Shown here piece after piece: positions 23,150 through 60,407 of a stretch of 64,000 nucleotides of DNA (position 1 is its first letter; the number at the start of each line of letters is the position of its first letter). The notes beneath the pieces were generated by a model. The model was not told the origin of the DNA and made no database searches. It saw nothing but the letters and a program-made list of their open reading frames with translations. A program made the position numbers and the translations under genes. Origin of the DNA: an uncultured Gammaproteobacteria bacterium (GTDB taxonomy: Bacteria; Patescibacteriota; Patescibacteriia; Magasanikbacterales; GWA2-37-8); the NCBI GenBank assembly GCA_964511375.1, contig CAZEEW010000006.1, positions 279-64,278 of the forward strand, in the 5' to 3' direction.

Positions 23150-24394
23150 TTAAGCCTTGTCAAGTGAGGATAAAAAGTCCGAGATTTTAATAAGCTTAGC
23201 GCTTTCTCCGCTTCGTGCCTTGTATTCTAAGGATTCTTCGGCTAGTGTCTTTTTAGACACTACTAAACGATGAGGAATACCAATAAGATCAGCATCAGCA
23301 AACTTTTCTCCGGCCGTTGGTCCTTCCCGGTCATCATACAATACTTCTAGTCCCAAGTAACATAATTGAGTATATAATTCCTCAGCGCTCTTACGCACCA
23401 GCTCATCTCCACCTAAGACCACGAGGTGGTATTTAAAAGGCGCAACTGTTTCTGGCCAGATGATACCTTTGTTGTCATGGCTCACTTCTACCAAAGTACC
23501 CATAATGCGCGACGGACCCATTCCGTAACATCCCATCTCCACTAAATGTTCTTTCCCGTCTTTATCTGCATAATTAAAACCGAATGGCTCGCTAAAGCGA
23601 GTACGGAGTTTAAAAATATTACCTACCTCAATCCCCTTTTTTTCTTTTAAATCTACATTACCGCATTCGGGACAGGTCTTTTGTTCTTCAATTATTTCTT
23701 TGTTGATCGCAACTTTACATTTTTCACATAAATAAATTGTATCCTCACCACTTTCACACAGGGTCTGGAATTCATGTGAATATTTACTAAATACACCCCC
23801 AGAAGCAAAGGTCAAAACAGTTTTTTCTTCCAAGCCAAGCCGTTCATATGCTTTGAAATATGCTTGTTTGACTTTTTCGTAATATTTGTCTAAATCTGCT
23901 TCATCTACGTGAAAAGAATACAAGTCCTTCATGTTGAATTCCCGACCGCGTAAAATACCGGACTTTGCTCGTGGTTCGTTTCGAAATTTATTTTGAATTT
24001 GGTAAACAGCTTGTGGTAAATCTTGGTAAGAAAAAGTATATTTCTTTACCAAAGGCGTCACAATCTCTTCATGAGTAGGATTTAAAAAATATACAGCTTC
24101 ACTTGGTCCAGTGGTTCGGAAAAGTATATCCATACCATCACGGCCAGTTGTTTTGTAGTTTTCTTCTTGAGTTAAGGTGGGCATGAGAATTTCATTTGCC
24201 CCAACTGCATTCATTTCCTCACGAATAATATTTTGAATTTTATTTAAAACTCGAAGACCTAAGGGTAAATAGTTGTATACCCCAGCCATTTGCTTGGAGA
24301 TATACCCGGCTTGGATTAAAAACTTAGCATTAATACTATCTTCATCTGAAGATATGGTCTTACTGGTCTTTCCAAATATCTGTGAATAACGCAT
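23150..24394 (-). CDS. proS: prolyl-tRNA synthetase (short form lacking the INS editing domain)
   Basis: N-terminus MRYSQIFG...AKFLIQAGYI...GVYNYLPLGLRVLNKI aligns to ProRS; class II motif 2 FRNEPRAKSGILRGREF. Confidence 0.8.
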   Translation of the reverse strand: MRYSQIFGKTSKTISSDEDSINAKFLIQAGYISKQMAGVYNYLPLGLRVLNKIQNIIREEMNAVGANEILMPTLTQEENYKTTGRDGMDILFRTTGPSEAVYFLNPTHEEIVTPLVKKYTFSYQDLPQAVYQIQNKFRNEPRAKSGILRGREFNMKDLYSFHVDEADLDKYYEKVKQAYFKAYERLGLEEKTVLTFASGGVFSKYSHEFQTLCESGEDTIYLCEKCKVAINKEIIEEQKTCPECGNVDLKEKKGIEVGNIFKLRTRFSEPFGFNYADKDGKEHLVEMGCYGMGPSRIMGTLVEVSHDNKGIIWPETVAPFKYHLVVLGGDELVRKSAEELYTQLCYLGLEVLYDDREGPTAGEKFADADLIGIPHRLVVSKKTLAEESLEYKARSGESAKLIKISDFLSSLDKA

Positions 24395-24480: not shown

Positions 24481-24509
24481 TTGACGATTACCTACTTTTC
24501 CGGTATATT
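24481..24509 (+). promoter_or_regulatory. sigma70-like promoter TTGACG-17-TATATT driving the GC-rich cassette 1
   Basis: Near-consensus hexamers with 17-nt spacer, about 125 nt upstream of the ATG. Confidence 0.45.
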
Positions 24510-24534
24510 ATTCGACTGTTCTTTTACAAGCACA

Positions 24535-24586
24535 CCGAGGCGAGCTCTAAGTGGACATCTCTATGCCCCTTTAGAGCTCACCTCGG
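24535..24586 (+). promoter_or_regulatory. 5'UTR hairpin: 16-bp inverted repeat CCGAGGCGAGCTCTAA/TTAGAGCTCACCTCGG with 20-nt loop
   Basis: Read directly; sits between promoter and RBS AAAGGAG. Confidence 0.4.
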
Positions 24587-24634
24587 AACAGATTCAAGGT
24601 TGAGCGCAGAATACCGCAGCGGAAAGGAGAATAC

Positions 24635-25066
24635 ATGCACCGCTGCGACGCCGTTCTGATCTCGTGTTTCGACTGGCGCATCCGGCGTCGGGTAGACGCC
24701 TGGATGCAATCGCAGGGTTACTTCACTTACGATCCCCTGCCGTATCCGGGGATCGTTGGTGTGATCAACTCTCCAACCTGCCCTGAAGGTCGGGAATTCG
24801 TGTTCCAGGGCGTGGCGAAGTCCCTCCGGCTCCATGCGCCCCACGACATCGTCGTCGTCACCCACGACGACTGTGGGGCGTTCGAGAGGTTCTTCTCCTC
24901 GCCTGAGGAAGAACGCTCATTCCACCACGAGCAGCTGCGCCTCGCGGCTGCTCTCATTCGGGCGCGCTGGCCCGAAGGGCCGGCGATTCGCCTGCTGTAC
25001 CTGACCGGTACGGCGTCCGTCGTGGACGCCAACACCGGTCATATCACGGTCGAGGAGCTGTCCTAG
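24635..25066 (+). CDS. beta-carbonic-anhydrase-like small protein (143 aa), GC-rich foreign-looking gene
   Basis: CxDxR (SCFDWR) and HxxCG (HDDCGA) beta-CA zinc-ligand motifs; AAAGGAG RBS 5 nt upstream; GC3-biased codons unlike host. Confidence 0.55.
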   Translation: MHRCDAVLISCFDWRIRRRVDAWMQSQGYFTYDPLPYPGIVGVINSPTCPEGREFVFQGVAKSLRLHAPHDIVVVTHDDCGAFERFFSSPEEERSFHHEQLRLAAALIRARWPEGPAIRLLYLTGTASVVDANTGHITVEELS

Positions 25067-25206
25067 CCCTCGACCTCTCCTGCCTTGGCCCGCTCCGGGC
25101 CAGCTCCATTTGGGCCCGGCGTCGTTCTTCGGCTCCTGGTCTCAAGAGAATGTATTTTAAATGTATCTTCTTGAGAGCCGAAGAAAATGTGCTTTAAAGA
25201 TACAGT

Positions 25207-25237
25207 AAAACACTCCTTTTTTAGGGAGTGTTTTGTT
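25207..25237. terminator. rho-independent terminator hairpin AAAACACTCC-loop-GGAGTGTTTT + T-run, shared by cassette 1 (+) and uppP (-)
   Basis: Perfect 10-bp stem then TTGTT; lies between two convergent genes. Confidence 0.55.
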
Positions 25238-25251
25238 ATATTTTTAAAGTA

Positions 25252-36772: not shown

Positions 36773-36826
36773 TTGACTTTAACCTTATAGTGTGGTACAA
36801 AGGACAGTTCAAAAACTGTTCTTTTT
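36773..36826 (+). promoter_or_regulatory. weak promoter-like TTGACT-17-TACAAA followed by small hairpin ACAGTT-CAAAA-AACTGT + T-run (possible attenuator/terminator) upstream of cassette 2
   Basis: Read directly; -10 is poor, function uncertain. Confidence 0.25.
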
Positions 36827-36841
36827 AAATTAATTTTGGCT

Positions 36842-36896
36842 AAGCTGACTTGCATAGTGGACATCTAACACAGGTGTTTAGTGTACCAGTCAGCTT
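36842..36896 (+). promoter_or_regulatory. 5'UTR inverted repeat AAGCTGACT ... AGTCAGCTT (9-bp stems, about 37-nt loop) upstream of cassette 2 ORF
   Basis: Read directly. Confidence 0.35.
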
Positions 36897-36954
36897 TGGA
36901 AAAACCACAGAACCAACCTGTGATGATTCAGGTTGAAGAAGCAGGGAGGCAACA

Positions 36955-37299
36955 ATGGGAGTGTTTCTCGTCCATCTGATCGTCCATCTCCTGGTCAGTG
37001 CTCTGATGGCGGGGGGAACCTACTTCTTCAGGGCACGACGGGCCCTGAAGAACGGGAAACACCTCAACGGGACGTTGACCGGAATGGTTAACGTCCTTAG
37101 CTGGACGCTGGCCCCAGTCTTCGCCAGCATAATTGTTCCGTATCCTGAAGAGCGGTCACTGAGACTGTGGTGGATCTCGGTGGCAGCCGCTTACCTGCTT
37201 AGTGCCGTTGCCATCTGGGTGAGTATTTTCCTCGCCCGGAGTTTGACTGGCTACGAACCACCGTATCCCACCGTGGAGGATGAATTGCCCACCGACTGA
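36955..37299 (+). CDS. small GC-rich membrane protein (114 aa, 3-4 TM), foreign-looking
   Basis: ORF track; RBS GGAGG 6-7 nt upstream; high GC3 codon usage unlike host; hydrophobic helices. Confidence 0.5.
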   Translation: MGVFLVHLIVHLLVSALMAGGTYFFRARRALKNGKHLNGTLTGMVNVLSWTLAPVFASIIVPYPEERSLRLWWISVAAAYLLSAVAIWVSIFLARSLTGYEPPYPTVEDELPTD

Positions 37300-37333
37300 G
37301 CAGACCGCACGTCTCATCCGAAGGGATCGCGCG

Positions 37334-37397
37334 CTCGTACATGGCTCGGTCTCTAGAGTAACTAAGTAATTAGTTCTTCTAGAGAGTTATGTACGAG
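37334..37397. repeat. 64-bp nested imperfect palindrome (CTCGTACAT...CTCTAGAG-T-AACTAA-GTAA-TTAGTT-CTTCTAGAGAG...ATGTACGAG) 3' of cassette 2 ORF
   Basis: Read directly; outer 9-bp arms perfect, inner arms perfect/near-perfect. Confidence 0.5.
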
Positions 37398-37404
37398 ATA
37401 AAAT

Positions 37405-37436
37405 AAAAATACCTACCTAAGTGGGGGGTATTTTTT
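37405..37436. terminator. intrinsic terminator AAAAATACC-13nt loop-GGTATTTTT + T-run, shared by cassette 2 (+) and tdk (-)
   Basis: 9-bp stem with flanking A/T runs on both strands between convergent genes. Confidence 0.45.
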
Positions 37437-45994: not shown

Positions 45995-46063
45995 AGTAAT
46001 TTTATGCTAACATTGCAAAATATCTATGGCAACCTGGCAGAGCATTATTAGATATACCGTAAC

Positions 46064-46092
46064 TGACAATACGGTCATTTGTGTGATATAAA
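46064..46092 (+). promoter_or_regulatory. sigma70-like promoter TGACAA-17-TATAAA for cassette 3
   Basis: Read directly; followed by hairpin GTCCGC-AAAGC-GCGGAC (46098-46114) and RBS GGAGGA 5 nt before ATG. Confidence 0.4.
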
Positions 46093-46139
46093 ATCAGGTC
46101 CGCAAAGCGCGGACTTCATCACCGTCACGGAGGAAACCG

Positions 46140-46658
46140 ATGTCCAAGCGCAACTGGGTGGCTATCAACGAGCTCGAGAACTACCATTTCCGCGTCCTGG
46201 TCGCGACGACCGACGACGCGGAGATCCTGGCCGGGCTCGAGCGGGGCTTCCCCGAGCTCTTCCTCGCGGGCGAGGAGGCACCCCTCTACCCGGTGCCCCT
46301 GTCGGTTGTCCAGAGCCGAGCCCGGGAATTCTCGATGCGCGAGTACCCCGATGAGAAGTGCTGGCAAGAGGACCAACACTTCATCCTGTGCTGGGGCACC
46401 TGCGACGACCTCGACATCCCGACCGCCTTCACCTGGGATGCCGACAACGAGGAGATCCCCCCGGAAATCCTCCAACAGTTCATGGGCCAGAGAGCCCAGG
46501 CCGGCATGACGGTCGTGATCGACGACCGTCGCTACCTGGTCTGGTTCATCGCGTTCAAGGTGGGCGAGGAGATCAAGCCCGGGGACACGTTCGAATCCCC
46601 ACCCAAGCTCGACAGGCTCGACCTCGTCGATGCCGACTTCGTCGACCTCGAGAGCTGA
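46140..46658 (+). CDS. acidic 172-aa hypothetical protein, GC-rich foreign-looking gene
   Basis: ORF track; strong RBS; about 65% GC with GC3 bias; no recognised motif. Confidence 0.5.
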   Translation: MSKRNWVAINELENYHFRVLVATTDDAEILAGLERGFPELFLAGEEAPLYPVPLSVVQSRAREFSMREYPDEKCWQEDQHFILCWGTCDDLDIPTAFTWDADNEEIPPEILQQFMGQRAQAGMTVVIDDRRYLVWFIAFKVGEEIKPGDTFESPPKLDRLDLVDADFVDLES

Positions 46659-46686
46659 TGGCGCTCGCGGCCCAAGGAGGGCCAGA

Positions 46687-46754
46687 CCGGGGCAGGAGAT
46701 ACGTCTCCTGCCCCGGTCAGCTACCTAAACATCTTTTGAGAAGATGTTTTTTTA
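46687..46754. terminator. tandem hairpins: perfect 13-bp stem CCGGGGCAGGAGA-TACG-TCTCCTGCCCCGG then terminator AACATCTT-TTGAG-AAGATGTT + T7; second hairpin also serves the convergent Y-family polymerase gene
   Basis: Read directly. Confidence 0.6.
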
Positions 46755-46758
46755 ATAC

Positions 46759-48069
46759 TTAAACCACTTCGCCTAAAAACGGTAAACCAATCCTCTGCCG
46801 AATGTTCTCCCCTTTTAGCAACTTACTCTTGCGTTCAGACAAAGTACCTCGGGTGTTATCATGTTGTTTTCTTCGCATAGCTAAAAAACTCGAACCTAAA
46901 AATAACGTATGTTTACCATAGCGTTCGGCTAGTTCATCAAAACTAGAAAAGACCCGTGCTAATTTTTCTGCTTTTATTACATTAGAAAATAAATCTAGTT
47001 GGTAATTTTTGTTTACAGTTAAATTCACTAATACTACCCCGGTAGCGCGATACAACGACCGAGGTCGAAACATCACATTAAAATTATCTTTAACTAAATT
47101 TATAATTTCAATCGGGATATTAGTGGCTCTGGCCAAAGTTAATTCTAAACTGTGAAAACGAAAATCTTGGGTTTTTAAAAACAAGAAGATCTTTTGACTG
47201 ACTAAATTATGTCGTCTAGCTTTAATACAAGCATTTTCAATGTTTTTAGACAATTCTGAAAAAACAATTTTTTCATCACTAGATGGTGGAGTAAAAGTAC
47301 GGGTTTTACTAATAGATTGGTAACTGGTCTTTTGGCCAATAGTTAAACCACAAACCGATTTACCATGGAGTTCTTGCCAGATCTCGTAATGGGGCTTAGT
47401 TAGATTGTGTAGAACCCAATCTTCATCTTTATCTGTAAATTCTAAAGCAGTACGTATACCTAATTTATTTAAATAGGCTGTGGTTTGCGGACCAATCCCC
47501 CAGACTTTACTAACGGATAGATCTTTAAGAAAATGGTGAATAGTTTTTCCTGGAATAAGTGTAAGACCTGAGGGTTTTTTCCACTTAGAGGCGACTTTCG
47601 CTAACACCTTGGTGGGTGCTAAACCAACCGAAAATGTCATACCTAATTCTTGATCTAATTCTTGTTTGATTTTTTCCGCAATTTTTTCATAATTCATGTT
47701 CAAAGGCCTTTGCAAACCTGTTAAATCTGCAAAACATTCATCAATACTATACTCTTCAACATCTGGTGTGTAACGGCGAACAATCTCGTACATTCTTAAG
47801 GAGTATAACGAATACGTCTCATAATCTGAGGGTAAAAAAATAGCGTCTGGGCAAACGCGTTTTACTTCACTAAAACTCATGGCCCGCTTTACACCACGAG
47901 CCTTGGCTTCGTAAGACAATGAAGAAACAATCCCCCGTTCCATACCAGTAATAACTGGCTTACCTTTTAAAGCGGGATTTTTCACCATCTCGCAGGAAGC
48001 AAAGAAGGCGTCGCCATCAATATGCAAAATTGCTTGCGGGTAGTCATAAATACTTAAGGCATGAGGCAT
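46759..48069 (-). CDS. Y-family DNA polymerase (UmuC/DinB-like)
   Basis: N-terminal LHIDGDAFFASCE catalytic motif; co-operonic with lexA. Confidence 0.85.
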   Translation of the reverse strand: MPHALSIYDYPQAILHIDGDAFFASCEMVKNPALKGKPVITGMERGIVSSLSYEAKARGVKRAMSFSEVKRVCPDAIFLPSDYETYSLYSLRMYEIVRRYTPDVEEYSIDECFADLTGLQRPLNMNYEKIAEKIKQELDQELGMTFSVGLAPTKVLAKVASKWKKPSGLTLIPGKTIHHFLKDLSVSKVWGIGPQTTAYLNKLGIRTALEFTDKDEDWVLHNLTKPHYEIWQELHGKSVCGLTIGQKTSYQSISKTRTFTPPSSDEKIVFSELSKNIENACIKARRHNLVSQKIFLFLKTQDFRFHSLELTLARATNIPIEIINLVKDNFNVMFRPRSLYRATGVVLVNLTVNKNYQLDLFSNVIKAEKLARVFSSFDELAERYGKHTLFLGSSFLAMRRKQHDNTRGTLSERKSKLLKGENIRQRIGLPFLGEVV

Positions 48070-48646: not shown

Positions 48647-48661
48647 ATGCAGGTATTTTAA

Positions 48662-48675
48662 CGAACGTTCGTTCG
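48662..48675. promoter_or_regulatory. LexA operator, Cheo-box type CGAACGTTCGTTCG (CGAAC-N4-GTTCG)
   Basis: Exact match to Gram-positive-type SOS box consensus, 16 nt upstream of lexA start codon. Confidence 0.6.
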
Positions 48676-48762
48676 GTTGTCAACTATTAAATAAGTTAGT
48701 TATCCACTTAAATTCCTGCTAAAACAAAAAAGCCTATTATCAGGCTTTCCTTAAAAGTTACC

Positions 48763-59902: not shown

Positions 59903-60110
59903 AATAACGGGTGTATAAAAGTTAATATTTATTAGAATATCACGAAGTTAAAATCCGGTCTAGGTTATATAATAAAGAGCGGGCTTTACGAAAAAACAGG
60001 CTTTTTTAAACCTGCTTTTCCACAACTGCTCGCCCTTTTGGGAAAAATACGAACGGATTTGGCCGAAATTTAAGATTGGCGGGTAGTAGAAAAATTCCCC
60101 ACATACCACA

Positions 60111-60407
60111 TGGCTCCGGGGGCGGGATTCGAACCCGCGACCAATTGATTACACTTACCTACTTGTTTCCAAATAGTGTGGACTATATCATCACCCCGAC
60201 GATGTCGGGGGCAAGGCGCTTCGACCAATTACCTGGTCTACTCCTTTCGGATAGTCTCTGAACCTTCCTGCTTTCGCAGGCTTGGCTGCTGATTACCATT
60301 GCCTTTCGACTTTAGGCTTCCAGCAATTCACCTTGTTTTCTGCCTTAATTACTTAAGGTAGCTGCGTTAAACCACAGTCAACTGCGCTACCGCTGCGCTA
60401 CCCCGGA
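60111..60407 (-). tRNA. tRNA-Asn(GUU) gene interrupted by a group I intron in the anticodon loop (exons 60374..60407 and 60111..60151)
   Basis: Perfect 7-bp acceptor stem (UCCGGGG/CCCCGGA) pairs across 297 nt; D-arm GCGC-AGCGGUA-GCGC; T-arm GCGGG-UUCGAAU-CCCGC; spliced loop CUGUUAA gives anticodon GUU with U1-A72 and G73 as in E. coli tRNA-Asn; CCA encoded. Confidence 0.65.
60152..60373 (-). ncRNA. group I self-splicing intron (222 nt) inserted between nucleotides 35 and 36 of tRNA-Asn
   Basis: Core elements AAUGGUAAUCAGCAGCCAAGCC and GGUUCAGAGACUA match conserved P3/P4/P6 and P7/J8-7 sequences of group I introns (Tetrahymena GUUCACAGACUA; Azoarcus AGAGACUA, GCCAAGC); 5' exon ends in U with GCAG internal guide pairing; intron ends in G. 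Confidence 0.65.

What the first reader, a model, noticed from the sequence alone, without database searches (positions are those of the whole stretch)
46040..46755. GC-rich plus-strand cassette 3: acidic 172-aa protein with promoter, leader hairpin and double terminator between a lipid-kinase gene and the SOS polymerase gene
Same architecture as cassettes 1 and 2: TGACAA-17-TATAAA promoter, a GTCCGC/GCGGAC leader hairpin, GGAGGA RBS and a 65%-GC ORF. The 3' region has a perfect 13-bp GC hairpin plus an A/T-flanked intrinsic terminator that doubles as the terminator of the convergent umuC-like gene. The protein is acidic with paired Cys (CWQEDQHFILCWGTC) and has no motif I recognise. Candidate roles are an immunity/antitoxin-like or regulator-binding protein, but this is open. 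The ORF contains adjacent SmaI/EcoRI sites (CCCGGGAATTC), which may be chance. The same codons CGG-GAA-TTC (Arg-Glu-Phe) also occur in cassette 1.
Basis: partly seen in the sequence, partly recalled or inferred. Interest (0 to 1): 0.75.

Follow-up and report, generated by a model that had tools for sequence, protein, structure and literature searches.

The report
GC-rich orphan gene island, Patescibacteria
A 0.6-kb stretch of very GC-rich DNA in the AT-rich chromosome of an ultra-small (CPR/Patescibacteria) bacterium is a real, self-contained gene for an acidic protein of an undescribed family. Its predicted fold matches no solved or viral structure, its function is unknown, and the family is unusually GC-rich in most genomes that carry it.

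Summary
Window 46097-46722 has 64.5% GC against a 40% background (z=8). It carries a 172-aa ORF (46140-46658, GC3 0.90 against 0.25-0.53 for 63 other ORFs, z=9.9). The ORF has an extended -10 promoter, a 5' stem-loop, a GGAGGA ribosome-binding site, a perfect 15-bp GC hairpin and an AT-rich terminator. An independent assembly reproduces both junctions.

The ORF is a true gene. An exhaustive search found about 100 clusters of full-length relatives, and AlphaFold gives pLDDT 94. No Pfam, NCBIfam, PHROG, PADLOC or PDB-sequence match exists, and no fold match in PDB or BFVD. No phage or plasmid copy was found.

The shared restriction-site and codon string is chance.

The window is housekeeping DNA with no mobility genes. 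The cassette has no target-site duplication, terminal repeat or attC-like site.

My best reading is an individually acquired accessory gene, a kind known in Patescibacteria, expressed as an insulated monocistron. The product is probably a non-enzymatic binding protein. Relatives often sit beside a TrmB-type regulator.

One caveat is that the family is GC-richer than its genome in 7 of 10 lineages and never GC-poorer, with signs of compositional stationarity. Recent transfer may therefore not be the whole story.

The parts
46056..46075 (.). Perfect palindrome ACCGTA-N8-TACGGT overlapping the -35 element. It is a possible operator, but it is weak evidence on its own.
   Evidence: One search lists it as a hairpin. 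One search shows it is the only 0-mismatch copy in the window. My estimate is that a 6+6 palindrome in a 100-bp region is not rare by chance.
46063..46092 (+). Promoter: -35 CTGACA (46063-46068), 18-nt spacer, extended -10 TGaTATAAA (46084-46092). It lies in AT-rich DNA, divergent from the DAGK-like gene.
   Evidence: own scan, 10 of 12 matches plus TG. The strict scan did not call it. Function is inferred.
46097..46722 (+). GC-rich segment (64.5% GC), which runs from about the predicted transcript start to the end of the GC hairpin.
   Evidence: z=8.0 against equal-sized windows.
46097..46115 (+). 5' stem-loop GGUCCGC-aaagc-GCGGACC (7 bp) at the predicted 5' end of the mRNA. On the minus strand the same hairpin plus CTGATTTTAT looks like a terminator facing the umuC operon.
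46129..46134 (+). Shine-Dalgarno GGAGGA, 5 nt before the ATG.
   Evidence: sequence.
46140..46658 (+). Gene for a 172-aa acidic protein (pI 4.2, 35 D+E against 15 K+R). It belongs to an undescribed family of about 100 clusters. GC1/2/3 = 0.65/0.37/0.90.
46669..46683 (+). Small GC hairpin GGCCC-aagga-GGGCC in the 3' UTR.
46685..46718 (+). Perfect 15-bp GC hairpin GACCGGGGCAGGAGA-tacg-TCTCCTGCCCCGGTC with no U tract. The arm CCGGGGCAGGAG recurs in the 3' UTR hairpin of the L059 homologue, and 10 of 12 bases recur in the 3' UTR of cassette 1.
46727..46753 (+). AT-rich intrinsic terminator: 10-bp stem, 3-nt loop, run of 7 T. It lies 6 nt before the stop codon of the convergent umuC-like gene (46759-46761).
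   Evidence: The scan did not call it, because the stem has only 2 G-C pairs.

Best explanation
Cassette 3 is a real, self-contained monocistronic gene unit. It sits in the core chromosome of a Patescibacteria (CPR) bacterium, in the intergenic gap between a YegS/DAGK-like lipid-kinase gene and a LexA-box-controlled S24-umuC operon.

Shown: it encodes a cytoplasmic, strongly acidic 172-aa member of a conserved but undescribed protein family. The loci I could recover all look like Patescibacteria. The predicted fold (an N-terminal helical part plus a C-terminal beta-sheet) matches no solved or viral structure.

Inferred, expression: the gene is transcribed from an extended -10 promoter. The mRNA begins with a 5' stem-loop, has a strong ribosome-binding site, and ends in a GC hairpin plus an AT-rich terminator. 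This would give a stable transcript that is insulated from the oppositely oriented neighbours.

Inferred, origin: the gene arrived as an individually transferred accessory gene from a GC-richer gene pool, most probably other Patescibacteria. It did not come on a transposon, integron, phage or plasmid.

Inferred with low confidence, function: the protein is a non-enzymatic binding or regulatory protein that probably acts as a dimer. In other lineages it belongs to the regulon of a divergently encoded TrmB-type regulator. Its biochemical target is unknown.
For: Real gene:
- 103 representative clusters at E<1e-3, 42 at E<1e-10, mostly full length at 160-190 aa.
- A conserved motif set.
- dN/dS of 0.3-0.6 between orthologues.
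- AlphaFold pLDDT 94 and pTM 0.81.
- The GC1/2/3 pattern of a coding region.

New family and fold:
- No hit in Pfam, PHROGs, NCBIfam, PADLOC or PDB sequences.

Foreign composition: GC3 of 0.90, z=9.9.

Not an artefact:
- The Logan contig is identical over 6,519 bp, including both junctions.
- Homologue islands are reproduced in several samples.

Expression signals.

No mobile-element vehicle:
- No target-site duplication or terminal inverted repeat.
- The whole window is housekeeping, with no integrase or transposase.
- No phage, plasmid or IMG/VR copy.

Single-gene transfer is common in this phylum:
- About 5% of ORFs in 54 related loci are GC3 outliers, including ordinary enzymes.
- PMC12455944 reports individually transferred genes in Patescibacteria, mostly between Patescibacteria.

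Probably late arrival: no orthologue above 50% identity exists among about 15 billion proteins. By contrast, cassette 1 of the same contig has an 80% orthologue in a related genome.

Binder rather than enzyme:
- The nearly invariant residues are N5, W6, I9, G36, F37, P38, F41, P53, S55, P94, P107, Q113 and L162.
- The family median pI is 4.8 and the median net charge is -10.
- Tandem-duplicated members P0019 and P0043 suggest a dimer.

TrmB link: a TrmB-type gene lies divergently upstream of the homologue in L061/L064, L065 and L066.
Against: - No donor or near relative was found, and no empty site exists. Only the S24-umuC pair is syntenic in relatives.
- The family is GC-richer than its genome in 7 of 10 independent lineages and never GC-poorer.
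- In one trio of orthologues, GC-to-AT and AT-to-GC changes are about balanced (32 against 26), as expected at compositional equilibrium rather than decay.
- Cassette 1 keeps GC3 of 0.73-0.78 at the same site in two genomes whose flanking genes are near synonymous saturation.
- Together these points argue that high GC may be maintained rather than a mark of recent transfer.
- The promoter and terminator are AT-rich and host-like, which simple import of a GC-rich fragment does not explain.
- The functional guess rests on conservation pattern and gene neighbourhood only, and the window has no TrmB gene.
- DNA context was available for only 13 family members out of about 100 clusters.
Confidence: 0.55

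Rival explanations
1. The GC-richness is a maintained, family-specific property rather than a scar of recent transfer. On this reading the gene is a long-term Patescibacteria resident. Its synonymous and non-synonymous sites are held GC-rich by selection (mRNA structure or stability, resistance to AU-directed RNases, or codon-limited translation) or by GC-biased gene conversion at a frequently recombining locus.
For: - 7 of 10 independent lineages have the gene GC-richer than its flanks, 3 are equal and 0 are poorer.
- Polarised changes in the L056/L063/L062 trio: S>W 32 against W>S 26 over all positions, and 4 against 3 at synonymous third positions. The implied equilibrium GC of about 0.63 is close to the present 0.66 in a 0.50-GC genome. 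The neighbouring 280-aa gene does decay (55 against 23).
- L061 and L064: the homologue and the flanking TrmB gene have the same dS (0.69 and 0.67), so they co-diverged. GC3 nevertheless stays at 0.69-0.76 against 0.35.
- The TrmB-homologue adjacency is kept down to 45% aa identity, with GC3 still 0.57-0.69 against 0.30.
- Cassette 1 orthologues are syntenic, with GC3 of 0.78 and 0.73, while flanks are near saturation.
- In the L056 group the island genes and the flanking GatB gene have very different synonymous divergence, which points to recombination.
Against: - The counts are small and parsimony polarisation is biased in skewed compositions.
- With wide error bars, an ancestor at GC3 of about 0.93 could still decay to the observed values (my calculation).
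- GC3 across members spans 0.51-0.92, as an amelioration series would.
- c3 itself has no orthologue to test.
- The gene-conversion effects known in bacteria are far smaller than +0.55 in GC3 (my own knowledge).
- Ribosomal and other highly expressed genes of the window are not GC-rich.
Confidence: 0.3
2. The protein is an orphan immunity, antitoxin or anti-defence protein, for example a DNA mimic or an inhibitor of a toxin or nuclease. It would be kept as a solitary, fast-evolving accessory gene.
For: - The protein is small, cytoplasmic and strongly acidic (pI 4.2; family median 4.8).
- It shows no catalytic-type conservation.
- Protein evolution is fast: dN is 6 times that of the flanking TrmB gene at equal dS, and dN/dS is 0.3-0.6.
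- The family is patchily distributed as single-gene islands.
- In one lineage it is paired with a divergent, equally GC-rich 280-aa protein of unknown function.
Against: - No toxin, nuclease or defence gene lies next to it in the window.
- No PADLOC hit for it or for its partners.
- No phage or plasmid copies.
- No structural similarity to known immunity or mimic proteins.
- dN/dS stays below 1.
- The recurrent neighbour is a transcription regulator, not a toxin.
Confidence: 0.15
3. It is a cassette moved by a dedicated recombination system, such as an integron-type attC cassette, a MITE or transposon, or another site-specific element. The hairpins would then be recombination sites.
For: All three window cassettes and some homologue loci carry conspicuous imperfect or perfect hairpins just 3' of the ORF. 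A 12-nt hairpin arm is shared between c3 and the L059 homologue. Unrelated GC-rich ORFs occupy the site downstream of umuC in L032, L036 and L037.
Against: - No direct or inverted terminal repeats at the borders.
- By eye, the hairpins show no R''/R' (RYYYAAC/GTTRRRY) boxes.
- The cassettes are single and dispersed, each with its own promoter.
- No integrase, transposase or reverse transcriptase in 64 kb.
- The 3' hairpin of cassette 1 is conserved with compensatory changes at a stable syntenic site, as expected of an RNA element.
Confidence: 0.04
4. It is an assembly chimera or contamination: a GC-rich fragment from another organism spliced into a Patescibacteria contig.
For: The composition switches abruptly at both borders, and the contig is a metagenome assembly.
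Against: - A second assembler gives the identical 6.5 kb across both junctions.
- The GC-rich part is framed exactly by host-type promoter, ribosome-binding site and terminator.
- Homologues form the same kind of island in unrelated samples and assemblies.
- Cassette 1 is found at the same site in three further metagenomes.
Confidence: 0.01

Closest known systems
Individually transferred genes and small genomic islets in Patescibacteria (PMC12455944, mSystems 2025)
   Same: It is a single accessory gene of atypical composition inside a streamlined CPR chromosome, with no accompanying mobility genes. That paper reports many individual transfers, mostly between Patescibacteria.
   Different: The gene family is uncharacterised. 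The family is GC-rich in most genomes that carry it and shows signs of compositional stationarity. The unit carries its own host-type promoter, structured leader and double 3' hairpin.
Integron gene cassettes (ORF plus attC hairpin)
   Same: It is a short single-ORF unit with a structured imperfect or perfect palindrome just downstream of the ORF. Several unrelated cassettes lie in one genome.
   Different: It has its own promoter, it is not in an array, and there is no attI or IntI. It has no R''/R' boxes and no conserved border motif. In cassette 1 the hairpin behaves as a conserved RNA element at a stable site.
Orphan immunity proteins and acidic inhibitor or DNA-mimic proteins (e.g. ArdA, Ocr, CdiI-type immunity)
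   Same: The protein is small, acidic and cytoplasmic. It evolves quickly, is patchily distributed and looks non-enzymatic.
   Different: There is no sequence or fold similarity to any of them. There is no cognate toxin or defence locus and no phage or plasmid association.
TrmB-regulated genes (PF01978 regulators)
   Same: In four lineages a TrmB-type regulator is encoded divergently upstream of the family member. This is the usual layout of a regulator and its target.
   Different: There is no TrmB gene in this window. The regulators are only 26-29% identical to each other, so the link may be convergent. No operator has been identified.

Membership tests
Horizontally acquired single-gene islet | Composition (GC, GC3, dinucleotide signature) significantly different from the host genome | tested here: met
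   GC is 0.645 against 0.399 +/- 0.031 (z=8). GC3 is 0.896 against 0.355 +/- 0.055 (z=9.9). The dinucleotide distance (delta*) to host genes is 280 x10^-3.
Horizontally acquired single-gene islet | Absent from the same site in close relatives (empty site), or patchy distribution | tested here: inconclusive
   No close relative of the contig was found among species-representative genomes (best umuC match 65% aa). Only the S24-umuC pair is syntenic. No orthologue above 50% identity was found in about 15 billion proteins, although cassette 1 has an 80% orthologue.
Horizontally acquired single-gene islet | Identifiable donor lineage or phylogenetic incongruence | not testable with these tools
   The libraries give no taxonomy for the roughly 100 family clusters. 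The 13 loci with DNA all look like Patescibacteria.
Horizontally acquired single-gene islet | Ongoing amelioration, seen as an excess of GC-to-AT changes | tested here: not met
   This was tested only on orthologues of the family in another lineage. S>W is 32 against W>S 26. The counts are small, and c3 itself cannot be tested.
Integron cassette | attC site with R''/L''-L'/R' boxes at the 3' end, and cassette borders at GTT | tested here: not met
   Hairpins are present, but inspection shows no RYYYAAC/GTTRRRY boxes, and there is no shared border motif.
Integron cassette | Integron integrase and attI, or an array of cassettes nearby | tested here: not met
   Pfam annotation of essentially all ORFs in the 64-kb window finds no integrase or recombinase. 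The cassettes lie 10-12 kb apart.
Transposon, IS or MITE | Terminal inverted repeats and target-site duplication | tested here: not met
   No direct or inverted repeat of 8 nt or more pairs the two borders.
Toxin-antitoxin or immunity pair | Adjacent co-oriented toxin or effector gene | tested here: not met
   The neighbours are DAGK_cat/YegS_C and IMS (umuC-like) genes on the opposite strand. No PADLOC hit.
SOS regulon member | LexA box in the promoter | tested here: not met
   A perfect CGAAC-N4-GTTCG box occurs only upstream of the S24-umuC operon (48662-48675). No match with 2 or fewer mismatches lies near 46040-46140.
Any described protein family or fold | Significant sequence-profile or structural match | tested here: not met
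   Sequence and profile searches were negative. Structure searches were negative. The AlphaFold database library was not available.

The most novel reading that the evidence does not exclude
Cassette 3, with cassettes 1 and 2, represents a class of compositionally insulated genes in AT-rich Patescibacteria. These would be single, independently transcribed units with a structured 5' leader and 3' hairpins. Their coding regions would be held at a gene-specific GC-rich equilibrium over long evolutionary times, either by selection on the mRNA or on codon use, or by strong GC-biased conversion at recombination-prone accessory loci. On this reading the product of cassette 3 founds a new-fold family of TrmB-linked regulatory or binding proteins specific to this phylum.
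Probability: 0.27. Interest if true: 0.75.

Novelty: new variant of a known kind. Interest (0 to 1): 0.5.

Why it matters
Patescibacteria are a large, mostly uncultured branch of bacteria with tiny genomes, and most of their accessory genes have no known function. This locus identifies a conserved family that is confidently foldable yet has no structural precedent. That makes it a clear target for structural and interaction studies.

The locus also shows that a strong GC anomaly in these genomes need not mean recent foreign DNA. If the GC-rich state is actively maintained, composition-based detection of gene transfer in this phylum would be misleading for such genes. A gene-specific force, acting on mRNA stability or codon use or through biased conversion, would then need explaining.

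If the gene is simply a late acquisition, it is one more example of the individual gene transfers already described for the phylum.

Tried and rejected
- Transcription-coupled or targeted hypermutation of the cassette. I rejected this because the homologue and the flanking TrmB gene have equal dS (0.69 and 0.67). Only dN is raised.
- My first impression that the GC-rich genes evolve faster than their flanks in L056/L062/L063. This was misleading. The flanking RRM gene is unusually conserved, while GatB has a dS of about 2.1. The locus is a recombination mosaic.
- A donor shared by the three cassettes, and meaning in the shared CGGGAATTC string. Both rejected.
- The 11-mer AGTGGACATCT in the leader hairpins of cassettes 1 and 2. 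It is borderline by chance (3 of 100 shuffles), absent from all other loci and not kept in the cassette 1 orthologue. No Rfam family matches the leaders.
- A link to SOS regulation. No LexA box lies at the cassette.
- Phage, plasmid or viral origin. No hits.
- Domain fusions as functional clues. The longer 'homologues' are either tandem duplications (P0019, P0043) or repeat-driven false positives (P0048, P0078).
- Searching for an empty site. No sufficiently close genome exists.
- Searching metagenome and viral contigs with the full family alignment. This failed because no stretch was conserved enough. A narrower alignment gave two further loci.
- Literature searches found no description of GC-rich gene islands in this phylum.
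Full report
**What is there**

The window is a 40%-GC chromosomal segment of a Patescibacteria (CPR) bacterium. The umuC-like gene next to the finding has its best relatives, at 57-65% aa identity, mostly in Magasanikiibacteriota and other Patescibacteria MAGs. Pfam annotation of essentially every ORF shows only housekeeping and accessory metabolic genes. These include the ATP synthase operon, MetRS, ProRS, NifU/IscS, an AddA-type helicase-nuclease, BipA and glycoside hydrolases. There is no integrase, transposase, reverse transcriptase or phage gene.

Nearly all genes lie on the minus strand, and the cumulative GC skew falls steadily across the window. Three short plus-strand segments stand out in composition: 24.5-25.15 kb, 36.9-37.35 kb and 46.1-46.72 kb.

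**Checking the observation**

The ORF at 46140-46658 encodes 172 aa. The segment 46097-46722 has 64.5% GC against 39.9 +/- 3.1% for windows of equal size (z=8.0). The ORF has GC3 of 0.896, against a mean of 0.355 +/- 0.055 and a maximum of 0.527 for 63 other ORFs (z=9.9). GC at the three codon positions is 0.65, 0.37 and 0.90, and the codon choice is that of a high-GC organism.

Upstream, the best promoter reading is -35 CTGACA (46063-46068), an 18-nt spacer and an extended -10 TGaTATAAA (46084-46092). The strict consensus scan does not call it, because the hexamer lacks the final T. The GC-rich DNA starts 5 nt after the -10 element with a 7-bp stem-loop (46097-46115). GGAGGA lies 5 nt before the ATG.

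This 3' region folds with z=-7.0 relative to shuffles.

On the minus strand the AT hairpin is followed by only three U. Its role as the umuC terminator is therefore plausible but weak. On the minus strand the 5' hairpin plus CTGATTTTAT does look like a terminator. It could stop read-through from umuC before the DAGK-like promoter.

A Logan assembly of run SRR5011273 gives a 17.5-kb contig that is identical to the window over 6,519 bp, including both junctions.

Three details of the finding do not hold:
- The three cysteines are not conserved in the family.
- The CGGGAATTC string shared with cassette 1 is expected by chance (P=0.78).
- The three cassettes do not share a compositional signature. 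GC3 is 0.90, 0.79 and 0.68, and delta* between them is 126-181 x10^-3.

**Is it a gene, and of what family**

A word-indexed search of 5.8 billion clusters found only the protein itself. An exhaustive phmmer scan of 1.84 billion representatives found 103 clusters at E<1e-3 and 42 at E<1e-10. Nearly all are full-length proteins of 160-190 aa. Two of the longer hits are repeat-driven false positives, and two are tandem duplications of the domain.

The alignment shows a clear motif set: KRNWxAI, GFPxLF, PLSxL, QLxGQxAxAGM and LxLVxAxFxDLD. The invariant or nearly invariant residues are N5, W6, I9, G36, F37, P38, F41, P53, S55, P94, P107, Q113 and L162. None of these suggests a catalytic centre.

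The family is uniformly acidic, with a median pI of 4.8 and a median net charge of -10. This member has a pI of 4.2.

AlphaFold2 with this alignment gives pLDDT 94 and pTM 0.81, with an N-terminal helical part and a C-terminal beta-sheet. Fold searches found nothing:
- Foldseek against PDB gives a best E of 1.
- Foldseek against BFVD gives a best E of 0.3.
- The AlphaFold-database library was not available.

Sequence searches were also negative. There is no hit in Pfam (including every member of the alignment), NCBIfam, PHROGs, PADLOC or PDB sequences. There is no copy in 50,697 phage records, 72,556 plasmids or IMG/VR. This is a real protein family that has not been described, and its fold has no precedent among solved or viral structures.

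**Where relatives live**

DNA context could be recovered for 13 members, representing about 10 independent lineages (summarised). All sit among ordinary genes of small-genome bacteria. Neighbours include GatB, ribosomal protein S20, EF-P, transketolase, BacA and LexA.

In 7 of the 10 lineages the gene is a GC-rich single-gene island:

| Locus or lineage | Gene GC | Flank GC |
|---|---|---|
| window (c3) | 0.64 | 0.36 |
| L056, L062, L063 | 0.66 | 0.50 |
| L059 | 0.60 | 0.36-0.44 |
| L061, L064 | 0.56-0.57 | 0.34 |
| L065 | 0.51 | 0.34 |
| L066 | 0.53 | 0.36 |
| L069 | 0.61 | 0.38 |

In the other 3 lineages the gene matches its genome. In none is it GC-poorer.

Each island has a near-consensus AT-rich promoter, a short structured leader, a strong ribosome-binding site and an AT-rich terminator. 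The 12-nt hairpin arm CCGGGGCAGGAG of the c3 3' UTR recurs in the 3' UTR hairpin of the L059 homologue, which is only about 34% identical in protein. Ten of its 12 bases also recur in the 3' UTR of cassette 1. I cannot explain this.

A TrmB-type regulator (PF01978) is encoded divergently upstream of the homologue in L061/L064, L065 and L066. In L056/L062/L063 the partner is a divergent, equally GC-rich 280-aa protein of unknown family. The window has neither.

**How the family evolves**

Between L061 and L064 the homologue and the adjacent TrmB gene have the same synonymous divergence (dS 0.69 and 0.67), so they co-diverged. The homologue's dN is 6 times higher (0.218 against 0.034; dN/dS 0.32 against 0.05). 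In the L056 trio dN/dS is 0.5-0.6. The protein therefore evolves fast under weak or partly diversifying constraint, but there is no local hypermutation.

An early impression that the GC-rich genes outrun their flanks was wrong. The flanking RRM gene is abnormally conserved, while GatB has a dS of about 2.1. The locus is a recombination mosaic.

**Origin: transfer or maintenance**

Several points favour ordinary lateral acquisition:
- The composition is extreme.
- No orthologue above 50% identity exists among about 15 billion proteins. By contrast, cassette 1 of the same contig has an 80% orthologue in a related genome.
- About 5% of ORFs in 54 related Patescibacteria loci are GC3 outliers, including ordinary enzymes such as a radical SAM protein and a phosphatase.
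- Published work reports hundreds of islands and individually transferred genes in Patescibacteria, mostly exchanged within the phylum (PMC12455944).

Several points count against a simple 'recent import, now ameliorating' picture:
- The one-sided GC excess of the family across lineages.
- The roughly balanced polarised substitutions in the L056/L063/L062 trio: S>W 32 against W>S 26 over all positions, and 4 against 3 at synonymous third positions. These imply an equilibrium GC of about 0.63, close to the current 0.66, in a 0.50-GC genome. The neighbouring 280-aa gene does show decay (55 against 23).
- The case of cassette 1. Its orthologue sits at the same site, next to ProRS and near BacA, in a related genome seen in three metagenomes. 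GC3 is 0.78 and 0.73, while the flanking genes have GC3 of 0.3-0.4 and are close to synonymous saturation. Its leader hairpin and long 3' hairpin keep their pairing through two compensatory changes each.

By my calculation from the third-position state correlations, neutral decay would need an ancestral GC3 of at least 0.93 to give today's values. That is possible only at the edge of the error bars. These tests use small numbers and other loci, so I treat maintenance as a serious rival (0.3) rather than the main reading.

**Mechanisms considered and excluded**

- No target-site duplication or terminal inverted repeat joins the borders of any of the three cassettes.
- The hairpins lack integron attC boxes.
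- No recombinase is encoded in 64 kb.
- The S24-umuC operon has a perfect CGAAC-N4-GTTCG LexA box (48662-48675) next to a TTGACA element, but the cassette promoter has none. Proximity to the SOS polymerase is therefore not regulatory. Only the S24-umuC pair is syntenic in relatives, so no empty site can be shown.
- Unrelated GC-rich ORFs lie directly downstream of umuC in L032, L036 and L037. This may mark a permissive intergenic site or may be coincidence.

**How it most likely works**

Shown:
- It is a real gene of a conserved new family.
- It has extreme, reproducible composition.
- It has complete host-type expression signals.
- It has strongly structured transcript ends.
- It has no mobile-element vehicle.

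Inferred:
- Transcription starts at about 46098. The 5'-terminal stem-loop and the tandem 3' hairpins stabilise and insulate a monocistronic mRNA made in the opposite direction to its neighbours, and probably head-on to replication.
- The acidic product acts as a non-enzymatic binding or regulatory protein, probably as a dimer, because some members are tandem duplications.
- In several lineages it is controlled by a TrmB-type regulator.
- Immunity-like or inhibitor roles remain possible but have no direct support.

**Verdict**

The feature is real and statistically extreme.

The feature belongs to a known kind, the individually acquired accessory gene in Patescibacteria, but with two unusual aspects. 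The protein family and its predicted fold are undescribed. The GC-richness appears to be a persistent property of the family rather than a simple transfer scar.

Interest is moderate (0.5). It would rise to about 0.75 if maintenance of a gene-specific GC-rich equilibrium were demonstrated.

Noticed in passing
window 24481-25250 (cassette 1); L070 3751-4612, L071, L072: Cassette 1 encodes a 143-aa Pro_CA_2-like protein. It has an 80%-identical orthologue at the same site (next to ProRS, near BacA) in a related genome seen in three metagenomes. GC3 stays at 0.78 and 0.73 although flanking genes (GC3 0.3-0.4) are near synonymous saturation. The leader hairpin and the long 3' hairpin each keep pairing through 2 compensatory changes.
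   Followed up: partly
window 36773-37430 (cassette 2): This third GC-rich plus-strand unit lies between a GH6 glycoside hydrolase gene and thymidine kinase. It encodes a 114-aa hydrophobic, probably membrane, protein with GC3 of 0.68. It has a long structured leader and a 3' hairpin of about 28 bp (z=-4.8). No family match was found.
   Followed up: partly
window 24550-24560 and 36856-36866: The identical 11-mer AGTGGACATCT lies inside the leader hairpins of cassettes 1 and 2. It is borderline against chance (3 of 100 shuffles), absent from 69 other loci, and not conserved in the cassette 1 orthologue.
   Followed up: yes
window about 60110-60400 (-): A tRNA gene is interrupted in its anticodon loop by a group I intron (Rfam RF00028, 82.8 bits). 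The anticodon loop reads CU-GUG-AA, so it is probably tRNA-His, and the 3' CCA is encoded. ARAGORN reports no tRNA in the window.
   Followed up: partly
window 48655-48690 (-): A perfect Gram-positive-type LexA box (CGAACGTTCGTTCG, 48662-48675) lies immediately after a TTGACA -35 element, upstream of the S24 peptidase/HTH (LexA/UmuD-like)-umuC operon. It is the only 0-mismatch copy in the window.
   Followed up: yes
L032 7346-8143, L036 7315-7683, L037 7271-7744: In three related Patescibacteria genomes the gap directly downstream of umuC holds three unrelated GC-rich ORFs (GC3 0.66-0.75 against 0.27-0.30). None has a Pfam match.
   Followed up: partly
L061 149-4161; L064 324-1835; L065 3096-4528; L066 2-933: Divergent pairs of a TrmB-type regulator and a GC-rich gene recur. 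The c3-family gene is the target in four lineages. In L061 a second TrmB paralogue is paired with a GC-rich radical SAM gene.
   Followed up: partly
L056 3841-5573; L062 91-1827; L063 74-1826: A GC-rich 280-aa protein of unknown family is divergently paired with the c3-family gene next to an RRM_1 gene. The RRM gene is 98-99% identical in DNA among genomes whose GatB has a dS of about 2.1, which points to recent exchange or mosaic recombination of this block.
   Followed up: partly
L025 11740-13201; L032 12027-13094: Tandem GC-rich paralogous ORFs share a conserved motif, AAAAACC(A)GTTCTTTCAAACC, right after the stop codon and ahead of a terminator hairpin. GTTCTT is enriched in the 3' UTRs of GC3-outlier ORFs (8 of 39 against 29 of 746).
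   Followed up: no
window 23150-24394 (-) against L070 2050-3750: The ProRS of the window is 414 aa, while that of the related genome is 566 aa and carries a tRNA_edit domain. The two are only 53% identical although neighbouring genes are 78-86% identical. This may reflect gene replacement or domain loss.
   Followed up: no
window 46056-46075: A perfect palindrome, ACCGTA-N8-TACGGT, overlaps the -35 element of the cassette 3 promoter. It could be an operator, but it is not significant on its own.
   Followed up: partly
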